Source of the DNA: Escherichia coli
GTDB lineage: Bacteria; Pseudomonadota; Gammaproteobacteria; Enterobacterales; Enterobacteriaceae
Reading direction: 5' to 3' (one strand)
DNA: 64,000 bases
Assembly (NCBI RefSeq): GCF_016026235.1
Contig: NZ_CP065613.1
Shown one piece after another: positions 44,601 to 47,600 of the stretch. How positions within the stretch are numbered: the first letter of the stretch is position 1; each line of letters begins with the position of its first letter. Position numbers: made by a program.

Positions 44601-47600
44601 TCGCACCAATTAACCTCAGAATTCATTTCAATGATAACTAAAGGCTTTATAAAAATAATTCTTCAGGAGAGGCACTTGGTAAACATAATTTTACTAAATA
44701 GATTGCAGATTATAATCTGATACAAAAACATTAATCACACTTCTTGTCCACACAGACCCACATTTCCCTATTCTATTGAAATTCACTTAAAACTCATCCA
44801 TGACATCATCAAATATAAAAATACATTTGCAAATCAAAAGCATTATCCAATATTTCTTTATAAGATTTGCCGAATTATCTCCAAGAGGCAAAGTGGCGCT
44901 TAAAAAACAAACACAGCGGATTTATATGATGTTTGGCAACAGCATTAACAGCATAGTGGGAGAAATAATAAAGAGATTTAAACAGACCAAACTTTAAATA
45001 TTTCCTGTAAAAGGCCCATTGTGAAAATATTATTTTTAATTTATTTGACGAGAGTGTATCGGTGCCTACTCGATAATAGGCCAGTGTTTCGTTCAAACAA
45101 TATGCATAATCAATTTTATCTAAAATGCTCAGCCATAGTGCCATGTCCTGTCTTTTCCTGATTGTTGGCATAAACATTTTACCAAGAGATGAAGTATCAT
45201 ATACAGCTGTCAAGCAACCTATTACATTAGTCTTTAATAATTCAGAATAATTAACTTTAGAAACAGGATTAATTTGGGATAAAAGTTTCCCGCTAAAACT
45301 AACCTTTTGATATGAGGTATAAGTGAAAGCATAATTATTTGAAAGCATAAAGTCTATCTGTTTTTTTATTTTCTCTTTATGCCAAAAATCATCACTATCT
45401 AAAAAAGCGATAAACCGACCTTTAGCTTTACTGATCGCTATATTTCTTGACATACCAGCCCCATAATTCTTCTCATTTGAAATGAGAACAACTCTTGAAT
45501 CTTTTTTTTGATATTCCCTGCAAATAGACACTGTATTATCTGACGAACAATCATCGACAATAATCATTTCTATATTATTATATGATTGAGATAGAACAGA
45601 ATCAATTGTACATCTAATCGTTCTTTCAGAATTATATGTGGGTGTTATGACTGAAACTAAATATTTATCGGTACTCATAGAATCATCTCAAACTTACATA
45701 AGTTTCATTATATAATGTCATGTTTATCATATCCATCCTTGGTAGCTTATTAAGAAATTTCACATATTAAATATTTATCAAGTATTTCATTAACATCCCA
45801 CCTTAATATAAAAAGCCGTTAATTAAGAGAGTAACTACAAAGCAAAGCAAAGCAAAGCAAAGCAAAGCAAAGCAAAGCAAAGCAAAGCAAAGCAAAGCAA
45901 AGCAAAGCAAAGCAAAGCAAAGCAAAGCAAAGCAAAGATGGTTTTATAAAAATATTGACAGTGAATAAAATAGCACATTAAAATCGTCTTATTTATATCC
46001 TTTGGGATTGTTTTTTTGCCAACGCCAAGAATCAATTATCATTGTATCTAAATCATATCGAGAAGACCACCCTAATTCTAAAAATGCTAGAGATGGATCA
46101 GACCAACATTCAGCTATATCACCAACTCGACGAGGTTTGAAACAATAAGGGATATCAATTCCAGTACAACGTTTAAAGGTATTTATCACATCAAGAACTG
46201 AATAACCAACCCCTGTACCAAGATTATATACTTTATAATTTCCCCCAAAATTACGGTGTTCTAAAGCAGCTATGTGCCCTTCAGCCAAATCCATAACATG
46301 AATATAATCTCTAATGCCTGTTCCATCAGGTGTAGGATAATCATTTCCGAATACTGATAAATATTTTAGATTACCAATAGCCACTTGAGTAATATAAGGA
46401 ATTAAATTATTTGGAACACCATTAGGATCTTCGCCTAATAGACCAGAAGAGTGGGCTCCTACAGGATTGAAATAACGCAAAATAGTAATACGCATTGTTG
46501 GCTCAGCCAAAGCTATATCCTTCAAAACCCTCTCTACTATAAGTTTTGAAAAGCCATATGGATTAGTTGTTCCGCCAACGCTACTATCTTCCTTCAAAGG
46601 AATAGTTTCAGGCTTACCATACACTGTTGCGGAGGAGCTAAAAATAAAACTAATAACGCCAGCGCGCATCATTTCTTCAAGTAAAACAATAGTTCCGTTA
46701 ACATTGTGATCATAATATTCCAATGGATTTGAAACAGATTCAGCGACGGCTTTTAATCCTGCAAAATGAATAACATCTGTAATATCATGATACTGGAAAA
46801 TATGTTTGAGTTTTTTCCTATCACGCACATCACCATGATAAAATAGAGGCCTACGTCCACAAATTTTTTCGACCCTTTCTAACGACTTAGACGATGAGTT
46901 CGATAGATTATCCAACACCACCACATTTTTTCCGTATGATAATAAGGATAATACAGTATGTGAACCAATGTAACCTGCACCACCAGTAACCAAAATAGTC
47001 ATAAAACTCCTTATATTTCATCTATCTGCCTAGGATATAAAACAAGAATATAAACACATTATAAATAGTATAAACTGTGAAAGAATAAAAATTTAGAATA
47101 GTTAAGCCCAATGTTACTATAAAAATACAATATGCAAGTATACGTTATTTTTCTAAACATCTCGACATATTGTATGAGTCTAACACTATATTGCATTTTT
47201 TTCGTGTAAATTATGTTCTAGTGGTGTCAGTAATTCGAGCAATTTATGAGGCCTTTTATTCTTGTACAGTATGCAATATTGAGCCTGTTTATGATTGACA
47301 TATTCAGATTTTCAAAGAGCAATTCTTCATTAAACTCAATAAACGGCTATCTCAGTGATCGGTTAAAGCGCTCACAGATGGTGTTCATTTTCGGCGTATC
47401 GAGATAAGCCTATTGGTGCCTGATAGCGGCTTCCTGTAGCTTTTTGTCAAATTTTCCCAGGAACTCTTCCCCATAATCGGGTATATTCTGGTTGATTCCA
47501 ACAGGTAACAACCGAGCTTGATGGCAGAAGAAACTCATGATTACATCACTGTTAAGCGACGTTACCGCCACCGCCAAAGCGTAGTTGCTGCGTTCGTCAA

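What the first reader, a model, noticed from the sequence alone, without database searches (positions are those of the whole stretch)
45841..45935. 19 perfect AGCAA repeats inside the O-antigen cluster: candidate slipped-strand phase-variation tract
Long perfect pentanucleotide microsatellites are rare in enterobacterial chromosomes. This one lies between gne and the last GT2 gene, about 260 bp upstream of the GT2 start. Copy-number change could alter promoter or terminator spacing and modulate expression of the distal glycosyltransferase, as known for simple-sequence contingency loci in Haemophilus and Neisseria. The repeat also creates the spurious ORF 45835-46035.
Basis: partly seen in the sequence, partly recalled or inferred. 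Interest (0 to 1): 0.6.

Follow-up and report, generated by a model that had tools for sequence, protein, structure and literature searches.

The report
Hypervariable 5-bp repeat in O143 O-antigen operon
A perfect 20-copy five-base repeat sits in the untranslated gap between two sugar-pathway genes of the E. coli O143 / enteroinvasive O-antigen cluster. Its length changes (11 to about 35 copies) between otherwise identical strains, so it is a real hypermutable microsatellite, but nothing in the sequence shows that it switches the downstream gene on or off.

Summary
The window carries (CAAAG)x20, perfect, at 45838-45937, which includes the reported AGCAA x19 at 45841-45935. On the coding (minus) strand it reads (CTTTG)20. 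It lies in the 310-nt spacer between gne/galE (45989-47002) and the last GT2 gene (44875-45678) of an O143-type O-antigen cluster.

About 15 independent public assemblies carry 11, 14, 16, 19, 20, 21, 22, 23, 25, 32 or ~35 copies. One metagenome contig has 5. Five sequences with 0 mismatches over 6 kb of flank carry five different alleles.

The proposed mechanism is not supported.
- The tract is not in a gene.
- All three frames stop within 33 nt after it.
- No promoter-like site straddles it; the best one is 103 bp downstream.
- No terminator-like site exists.
- There is no Rfam match.
- It has no purine-rich pairing partner.
- Predicted accessibility of the GT2 start is the same for 5-35 copies.

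Best reading: a slippage-driven VNTR in a patchwork, IS-scarred module, probably near-neutral. A graded effect on GT2 remains possible (about 0.2-0.25). I found no description of it in the searched literature.

The parts
45838..45937 (-). Pentanucleotide microsatellite, (CTTTG)20 on the coding strand and (CAAAG)20 on the plus strand; perfect, 100 bp
   Evidence: Copy number is polymorphic (5?, 11-35) in related loci.
45938..45988 (-). Upstream part of the gne-GT2 spacer (51 nt after the gne stop codon); invariant in all alleles
45679..45837 (-). Downstream part of the spacer (159 nt, tract to GT2 ATG). It has stop codons in all three frames within 33 nt of the tract and SNPs at three positions among alleles
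   Evidence: No relative outside O143-type genomes.
45989..47002 (-). gne/galE, UDP-hexose 4-epimerase (337 aa)
   Evidence: NCBIfam TIGR01179 at 443 bits, above cutoff; PGAP annotation in L001-L004; only synonymous variants among about 20 alleles
44875..45678 (-). TuaG-like family-2 glycosyltransferase (267 aa), the last gene of the cluster before gnd
   Evidence: Intact in all alleles. The C-terminal ~14 aa are unlike those of homologues.
45707..45735 (-). Promoter-like site TGGATA-17-TATAAT between the tract and GT2 (10/12); a consensus match only
45955..45984 (+). Promoter-like site TTGACA-18-TAAAAT (11/12) 17 bp from the tract, pointing antisense into gne; a consensus match only
45835..45978 (-). 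Mechanical small ORF, ATG 11 nt after the gne stop: MCYFIHCQYFYKTI(FALLC)n. No Shine-Dalgarno sequence; it is part of the 66-aa ORF 45835-46035
   Evidence: reading of the sequence
47003..48752 (-). Decayed IS481-family transposase remnant between wzy and gne
   Evidence: PGAP 'integrase core domain, frameshifted; internal stop'
44030..44874 (.). 845-bp unannotated non-coding stretch between GT2 and gnd, found only in O143-type genomes
56805..56812 (-). ops element (GGCGGTAG) between galF and the first gene of the cluster; the only one in the cluster

Best explanation
The tract is a hypermutable pentanucleotide microsatellite (VNTR) in the transcribed but untranslated 310-nt spacer between gne and the terminal GT2 gene of the O143-type (EIEC O143 / E. 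coli O143) O-antigen operon.

Shown:
- It expands and contracts in exact 5-bp steps far faster than point mutations accumulate.
- It sits in a patchwork segment: IS481 remnant, gne, spacer, GT2 with a replaced C-terminus, 845 bp of non-coding DNA, then gnd. This segment is specific to this serogroup.

Inferred:
- The mechanism of change is replication slippage. From general knowledge, 5-nt loops are poorly corrected by E. coli MutS-dependent mismatch repair, which would explain the instability in a species that otherwise lacks long SSRs.
- Copy number only changes the length of an unstructured, U-rich, non-coding stretch of a long RfaH-dependent polycistronic mRNA.
- The tract is therefore not an ON/OFF switch. 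It is most likely close to selectively neutral, with at most a modest graded effect on GT2 expression.
For: - Tract and coordinates.
- Alleles: 20 (window), 14, 21, 19, 25; ~35 interrupted, 22, 11, 23; 19, 32, 16, 19, >=30; 23, 19, 5.
- Window and L090-L093: 0 mismatches over 6.0-6.4 kb but 20/~35/22/11/23 copies. L097 against L100: 0 mismatches in 4,854 bp but 19 against 16 copies.
- Internal control: the (AT)8 and (AAAAAAT)4 tracts in wzy do not vary among the window and L001-L004.
- Not coding: stops in all frames within 33 nt after the tract, and all three n mod 3 classes occur.
- No promoter straddles it and there are no terminators.
- A single ops lies upstream of the cluster.
- GT2 ribosome-site accessibility is 0.47 for n = 5-35.
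- The tract pairs only weakly with itself and has no purine-rich partner.
- No Rfam match.
- GT2 homologues in other genera abut or overlap their upstream gene, with no spacer or repeat. The spacer has no relatives outside O143 genomes.
- IS remnant.
Against: - No isolate assembly has fewer than 11 copies, in either flank haplotype. This could mean that length is maintained by selection.
- The downstream gene is exactly the class that SSR contingency loci control.
- A review notes that O143 has one unexplained extra glycosyltransferase (PMC7685785), which would suit a variably expressed accessory enzyme.
- A promoter-like site lies between the tract and GT2.
- Every transcribed unit (GC|UUU) fits the RNase E core motif RN|WUU (PMC5222698).
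- No expression data of any kind were available, so neutrality is an inference from the absence of features.
Confidence: 0.62

Rival explanations
1. Graded contingency locus ('rheostat'). Tract length tunes GT2 expression, either by changing the distance or helical face between an upstream element and a GT2-proximal promoter (nadA-like), or post-transcriptionally, because a longer unstructured U-rich spacer offers more RNase E or Rho entry sites and lowers distal-gene expression (hmw/uspA2-like). This would give population heterogeneity in O-antigen amount or decoration.
For: - Hypermutability is shown.
- The gene class fits.
- The minimum in isolates is 11 copies, in both haplotypes.
- TGGATA-17-TATAAT lies at 45735-45707.
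- 20 tandem GC|UUU units fit RN|WUU.
- The O143 'extra' glycosyltransferase is unexplained.
- Intergenic SSRs with graded effects are documented: hmw in PMC12721329 and nadA in PMC4235727.
Against: - The tract is 103 bp from the nearest -35-like hexamer, and promoter-like sites are not enriched over shuffles.
- There is no hmw-type hairpin partner, and GT2 start accessibility does not change with copy number.
- RN|WUU is a low-information motif in AT-rich RNA.
- RfaH-modified transcription (ops) is expected to resist Rho.
- Odd and even copy numbers, and all n mod 3 classes, occur without pattern.
- The spacer carries SNPs.
Confidence: 0.23
2. The tract tunes an antisense promoter. The strong plus-strand site TTGACA-18-TAAAAT (45955-45984) lies 17 bp from the tract and would transcribe antisense through gne, so the A-rich tract upstream of it would modulate gne expression rather than GT2.
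For: This is the best consensus match in the 4.8-kb scan (11/12). The AT-rich stretch between the tract and the -35 resembles an UP element (sequence).
Against: It is a consensus match only. AT-rich horizontally acquired DNA is full of such sites (31 in 4.8 kb, with 24 expected). Copy number changes do not alter the sequence next to the -35. There is no evidence of an antisense transcript.
Confidence: 0.05
3. Variable-length small hydrophobic peptide. Ribosomes terminating at the gne stop reinitiate at the ATG 11 nt downstream (45978) and translate MCYFIHCQYFYKTI(FALLC)n, so copy number sets peptide length or the frame of termination.
For: The ORF is open in every allele because the unit has no stop codons. 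The ATG lies close to the gne stop. A gene caller called it in L090.
Against: There is no Shine-Dalgarno sequence. Any stop-free repeat yields such an ORF mechanically. All frames occur among alleles, so the peptide tail is not conserved. All frames stop at least 127 nt before GT2, so there is no coupling.
Confidence: 0.04
4. Artefact. The copy-number differences are assembly or sequencing errors, not biological variation.
For: - Short-read contigs break at the tract (L094-L096, L105, L113).
- One scaffold has an N gap (L099).
- One assembly has a CTTG unit inside the tract (L090).
- The 5-copy allele comes from a metagenome assembly (L112).
- L103 joins the tract to an unrelated locus.
Against: Around 15 independent assemblies, including five complete genomes, give perfect tracts that differ by exact multiples of 5 bp and have intact unique flanks on both sides. 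Random error would not give this.
Confidence: 0.03

Closest known systems
Haemophilus influenzae hmw1A/hmw2A (ATCTTTC)n intergenic SSR
   Same: A long (>=11 units), pyrimidine-rich, non-coding tandem repeat upstream of a surface-structure gene. It is transcribed as part of the upstream untranslated RNA, and copy number varies between isolates. The documented effect is graded, not ON/OFF (PMC12721329; PMC4235727).
   Different: The hmw repeat works through a long hairpin between about 10 repeats and a G-rich partner, which RNase III cleaves. Here no purine-rich partner exists, and the fold outside the tract does not depend on copy number. The unit is 5 nt rather than 7. The tract sits inside an operon between two genes, not in the 5'-UTR of a monocistronic gene. 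The organism is E. coli/EIEC, where such loci are not known.
Neisseria meningitidis nadA (TAAA)n upstream-of-promoter SSR
   Same: The SSR lies upstream of the core promoter rather than within it, and it changes the spacing between distal elements and RNA polymerase (PMC4235727).
   Different: nadA has defined NadR/IHF sites flanking the tract. Here no regulator site or mapped promoter is known, and the tract ends 103 bp from the nearest -35-like hexamer.
Intragenic SSR switches of LOS/LPS glycosyltransferases in Haemophilus and Neisseria (tetranucleotide lic2A/lgtC types; pentanucleotide examples in PMC2651432)
   Same: Slipped-strand hypermutation associated with glycosyltransferase genes of surface glycans.
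   Different: Those tracts lie inside the reading frame and switch translation ON/OFF. This tract is outside any gene, and all frames close after it.
VNTR loci used for MLVA typing of E. coli O157 and Shigella (from my own knowledge)
   Same: A short-unit tandem array in an enterobacterial chromosome whose copy number differs between closely related isolates, with no demonstrated function.
   Different: Those loci mostly have 6-9 bp or longer units and are spread around the core genome or prophages. This one has a 5-bp unit, is perfect and up to 35 copies long, and is confined to one O-antigen gene cluster type.

Membership tests
VNTR / microsatellite (hypermutable simple sequence repeat) | Head-to-tail perfect or near-perfect copies of a 1-9 bp unit | tested here: met
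   20.0 copies, 100% matches, 0 indels; perfect in 14 of 15 full-length alleles
VNTR / microsatellite (hypermutable simple sequence repeat) | Copy number polymorphic among closely related strains, in unit-sized steps | tested here: met
   11-35 copies among sequences with 0-2 mismatches in 4.8-6.4 kb of flank; all differences are multiples of 5 bp
SSR contingency (phase-variation) locus, translational type | The tract lies within the reading frame, so that unit changes shift the frame of a functional gene | tested here: not met
   The tract lies 51 nt after the gne stop and 160 nt before the GT2 start. Stops occur in all three frames within 33 nt after it.
SSR contingency (phase-variation) locus, transcriptional type | The tract lies between or overlaps the -35/-10 elements, or between a defined regulator site and the promoter, so that copy number changes promoter activity | tested here: inconclusive
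   No predicted promoter straddles the tract. The nearest -35-like hexamer is 103 bp downstream. Promoter-like sites are not above shuffle expectation, and no regulator sites are known. No transcription-start data.
SSR contingency (phase-variation) locus, any type | High-frequency, reversible change of tract length within a clonal population | not testable with these tools
   Only consensus assemblies are available. Between-isolate variation is consistent with this feature but is not a rate measurement.
SSR contingency (phase-variation) locus, any type | A change in expression or phenotype linked to tract length | not testable with these tools
   No expression or LPS data. In silico, GT2 start-site accessibility is constant for n = 5-35.
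SSR contingency (phase-variation) locus, any type | The associated gene encodes a surface or host-interaction determinant | tested here: met
   The downstream gene is a family-2 glycosyltransferase in an O-antigen cluster
hmw-type 5'-UTR repeat hairpin element | The repeats pair with a complementary G/purine-rich arm to form a long RNase III-sensitive hairpin | tested here: not met
   No CRRRGCRRRG site within 44001-47500 on the mRNA strand. Tract pairing is mostly weak self-pairing: per-nt probability 0.29-0.35 with itself, 0.04-0.12 with downstream sequence.
O143-type O-antigen gene cluster (context) | wzx/wzy of the O143 family between galF and gnd | tested here: met
   99.5% DNA identity to four genomes whose wzx/wzy PGAP names 'O143 family'. 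The flank is identical to EIEC O143:H26 strain 4608-58 (JTCO01).

The most novel reading that the evidence does not exclude
This is an SSR-driven contingency locus in an E. coli / EIEC / Shigella-type O-antigen operon. Tract length stochastically tunes an accessory ('extra') glycosyltransferase, and so creates heterogeneity in O-antigen structure or amount within clonal populations of an invasive pathogen. Such a locus would operate in a species thought to rely on inversion and methylation switches rather than on microsatellites.
Probability: 0.2. Interest if true: 0.75.

Novelty: new member of a known kind. Interest (0 to 1): 0.45.

Why it matters
Long microsatellites are almost absent from E. 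coli, and no SSR-based phase variation of O antigen is established in E. coli or Shigella. A tract that changes length in nearly every isolate, immediately upstream of an O-antigen glycosyltransferase of an enteroinvasive lineage, gives a cheap, directly testable candidate for such variation.

Even if it is neutral, it has practical value:
- It is a high-resolution typing marker for O143-type strains.
- It is a recurrent cause of contig breaks and possible misjoins in their assemblies.
- It is a natural example of pentanucleotide slippage in a mismatch-repair-proficient enterobacterium.

Tried and rejected
- A metagenome scan with the right flank plus two units found 0 hits.
- I looked for the donor or origin of the repeat. 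None of the 85 (CAAAG)>=7 stretches in 100k species genomes shares flanks, gne or GT2 with the window. Their contexts are heterogeneous, mostly intergenic or inside ORFs created by the repeat, with no consistent gene association.
- The closest GT2 relatives (Edwardsiella tarda at 70% identity, and an unnamed contig at 67%) have no gne, spacer or repeat upstream.
- The spacer has no relatives outside O143 genomes.
- RNA-switch idea: folds at 11 copy numbers show no change at the GT2 start and no long-range partner. There is no Rfam match.
- Coding-switch idea: rejected from the stop codons.
- I checked whether the PGAP 'frameshifted' wzy in the four E. coli genomes reflects slippage at the (AT)8 or (AAAAAAT)4 tracts. 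The alignment to the window is gapless, so it does not.
- L112 (5 copies) looked divergent, but it differs only in gnd.
- Four targeted literature searches found no mention of this repeat.
- I could not recover the O143 repeat-unit structure or gene assignments from the held papers. The review's supplements are not held, so which glycosyltransferase is the 'extra' one remains unknown.

Full report
**The observation**

The window carries a perfect pentanucleotide array. Tandem Repeats Finder gives period 5, 20.0 copies, 100% matches and no indels at 45838-45937, consensus CAAAG. Chance is excluded: 95 determined bases give about 1e-52 for a 64-kb window. It is by far the strongest tandem array in the window (score 200, next best 60). 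All nearby genes are on the minus strand, so the transcribed strand reads (CTTTG)20.

**Context**

The region is an O-antigen cluster between galF (57098-58003) and gnd (42617-44029). It is 98.6-99.6% identical over the 2.3-kb query (99.5-99.6% in three) to four complete E. coli genomes whose wzx and wzy PGAP names 'O143 family'. Its flanks are identical to a contig of EIEC O143:H26 strain 4608-58, JTCO01. Read along the coding strand, the order is:
- ops element (56805-56812);
- aminotransferase, HAD hydrolase, ATP-grasp ligase and acyltransferase genes;
- wzx, two glycosyltransferase genes, wzy;
- a decayed IS481-family transposase remnant (47003-48752);
- gne/galE (45989-47002);
- a 310-nt spacer holding the repeat;
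- a 267-aa TuaG-like family-2 glycosyltransferase, GT2 (44875-45678);
- 845 bp of unannotated DNA found only in O143-type genomes;
- gnd.

The cluster is about 30% G+C, against about 48% in gnd and galF.

**Copy number**

Full-length alleles from independent assemblies:

| Group | Copies |
|---|---|
| Window | 20 |
| L001-L004 (complete E. coli genomes) | 14, 21, 19, 25 |
| L090-L093 | 20+CTTG+14 (~35), 22, 11, 23 |
| L097, L098, L100, L101 | 19, 32, 16, 19 |
| L099 | at least 30, across an N gap |
| L110 | 23 |
| L112 (metagenome contig) | 5 |

All differences are exact multiples of 5 bp, and all but one tract are perfect.
- The window and L090-L093 have 0 mismatches over 6.0-6.4 kb outside the tract, yet carry five different alleles.
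- L097 and L100 have 0 mismatches in 4,854 bp but 19 and 16 copies.
- As an internal control, the (AT)8 and (AAAAAAT)4 tracts inside wzy do not vary among the window and the four complete genomes.
- Several short-read contigs end at the tract.

The tract is therefore a real hypermutable SSR, changing much faster than point substitutions accumulate. The 5-copy allele is identical to L110 outside gnd. It may be a true contraction or an assembler collapse.

**What the tract does not do**

- It is not in a gene. It starts 51 nt after the gne stop and ends 160 nt before the GT2 ATG.
- On the mRNA strand all three frames hit a stop 0, 15 or 30 nt after the tract, and alleles of every n mod 3 class occur. 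A frame-shift switch and translational coupling to GT2 are both excluded.
- The 66-aa ORF 45835-46035 exists only because the unit has no stop codon in any frame.
- No sigma-70-like site straddles the tract. The best minus-strand match (TGGATA-17-TATAAT, 45735-45707) lies 103 bp downstream of it. Such matches are no commoner here than in shuffled sequence (31 against 24.4 +/- 4.8). No terminator-like site is present.
- The only ops element lies upstream of the first gene, so GT2 should be transcribed as the distal part of one RfaH-dependent operon.
- No Rfam family matches the region at E <= 1.
- Folding the spacer with 0-35 units gives the same predicted accessibility of the GT2 start region (0.47 for n = 5-35).
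- The tract pairs only weakly with itself, through isolated G-C pairs separated by U/U loops. No purine-rich partner exists within 3.5 kb. The mechanism documented for the H. influenzae hmw heptanucleotide repeat, a long hairpin cut by RNase III (PMC12721329), does not apply.

**Origin**

- The nearest GT2 relatives outside O143 are in Edwardsiella tarda (70% identity) and an unnamed contig (67%). Both sit tightly packed in their operons, with no gne, spacer or repeat upstream.
- The non-repeat spacer has no relatives outside O143 genomes.
- (CAAAG)>=7 occurs in 85 stretches from about 65 species among 100,044 species genomes. None is related to this locus, and there is no consistent gene association.
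- The O143 GT2 has a C-terminal tail unlike its homologues, and an IS remnant flanks gne.

The gne-spacer-GT2 segment therefore looks like a patchwork junction in which a microsatellite has expanded.

**Most likely mechanism**

Shown: unit-step length changes at a high rate, in non-coding operon-internal DNA.

Inferred: replication slippage. From general knowledge, 5-nt loops largely escape MutS-dependent repair in E. coli, which would explain why this unit length runs away in a species that otherwise lacks long SSRs. The only thing copy number changes is the length of an unstructured U-rich untranslated segment of the polycistronic mRNA, 235-385 nt in total. I therefore rate a near-neutral VNTR with no ON/OFF role as most likely (about 0.6).

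**The main rival**

The main rival (about 0.23) is a graded 'rheostat' on GT2.

Points in its favour:
- the gene class;
- no isolate has fewer than 11 copies, in two flank haplotypes;
- a promoter-like site lies between the tract and GT2;
- every transcribed unit GC|UUU fits the RNase E core motif RN|WUU (PMC5222698), although that motif is common in AT-rich RNA;
- a review remarks that O143 has one unexplained extra glycosyltransferase (PMC7685785);
- precedents exist for intergenic SSRs with graded effects, namely hmw and nadA.

Points against it are the negative results listed above. In addition, copy numbers show no parity or modulo pattern, and the spacer itself carries SNPs.

Minor rivals are control of an antisense promoter (TTGACA-18-TAAAAT at 45955-45984), a variable hydrophobic peptide, and assembly artefact. 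All are rated low.

**Comparison and novelty**

The tract meets both defining features of a VNTR. For an SSR contingency locus, the results by feature are:
- gene class: met;
- intragenic location: not met;
- promoter-type location: inconclusive;
- within-clone switching and a linked phenotype: not testable here.

I therefore file it as a new member of a known kind, a hypermutable microsatellite. It is unusual for its length, its species and its position inside an O-antigen operon. Four targeted literature searches found no description of it, but that library lacks most subscription-journal papers.

**Verdict**

Interest is moderate (0.45). It would rise to about 0.75 if copy number were shown to tune GT2 or O-antigen structure, which I put at about 0.2.

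Noticed in passing
window 41299-42594 (minus): An IS4-family transposase (431-aa ORF; NCBIfam NF033591, 360 bits) is inserted between gnd and ugd. It is present in the window and in the haplotype-A assemblies (L090, L091) but absent from the four complete E. coli O143-type genomes, so it marks the EIEC O143:H26-like lineage.
   Followed up: partly
L103 3566-3625 and downstream (GCA_027276725.1, JAPWZU010000106.1): In this draft assembly, gne and 12 repeat units are joined directly to the middle of the prophage integrase gene intS next to tRNA-Arg/yfdC, instead of to GT2. 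This is either a real rearrangement with a breakpoint in the tract or a misjoin caused by it.
   Followed up: partly
L090 2668-2841 (GCA_014155105.1): This is the longest allele, and the only one that is interrupted: 20 units, one CTTG unit lacking a T, then 14 units. It may be a real interruption or a homopolymer sequencing error.
   Followed up: no
window 44875-45678 (GT2), codons 46 and 198: Haplotype B (the four complete E. coli genomes, CP026797 and others) carries S46L and T198I relative to the window. Position 46 is Ser or Thr in 50 of 59 homologues and lies between invariant S45 and D47, so GT2 may be impaired in haplotype B. gne has only synonymous variants (4 synonymous, 0 non-synonymous).
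   Followed up: partly
window 44875-44930 (3' end of GT2) and 44030-44874: The last ~14 residues of GT2 (HHINPLCLFFKRHFASWR) are unrelated to the C-termini of its homologues. They are followed by 845 bp of unannotated DNA unique to O143-type genomes. One genome (L003, CM128589) has lost about 220 bp of it. It looks like a recombination scar.
   Followed up: partly
window 48753-50015 (wzy); tracts at 48815-48830 and 48952-48982: wzy contains an (AT)8 run and an (AAAAAAT)4.3 run in its 3' part. PGAP annotates wzy as 'frameshifted' in all four complete genomes, yet they align to the window's intact 420-aa ORF without gaps. The frameshift call is therefore relative to a reference protein, with the pseudo-CDS ending near the A-rich run.
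   Followed up: partly
window 45955-45984 (plus): A near-consensus sigma-70-like site (TTGACA, 18-nt spacer, TAAAAT; 11/12) lies 17 bp from the repeat, preceded by AT-rich sequence. It points antisense into the 3' end of gne.
   Followed up: no
L112 3413-3803 (ENA ERZ27234043 metagenome contig): This contig has the same gne-spacer-GT2 sequence as the other haplotype-B loci but a different gnd allele (31 SNPs in about 400 bp). That points to a recombination breakpoint just inside gnd, as is usual for O-antigen cluster transfer.
   Followed up: partly
L005, L007, L040, L049, L072 and other Pseudomonas loci; L011-L016 and L064-L068 Brachyspira: The same CAAAG unit reaches 20-28 copies in several Pseudomonas species. 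It occurs at many separate sites in two Brachyspira genomes, often at contig ends.
   Followed up: no
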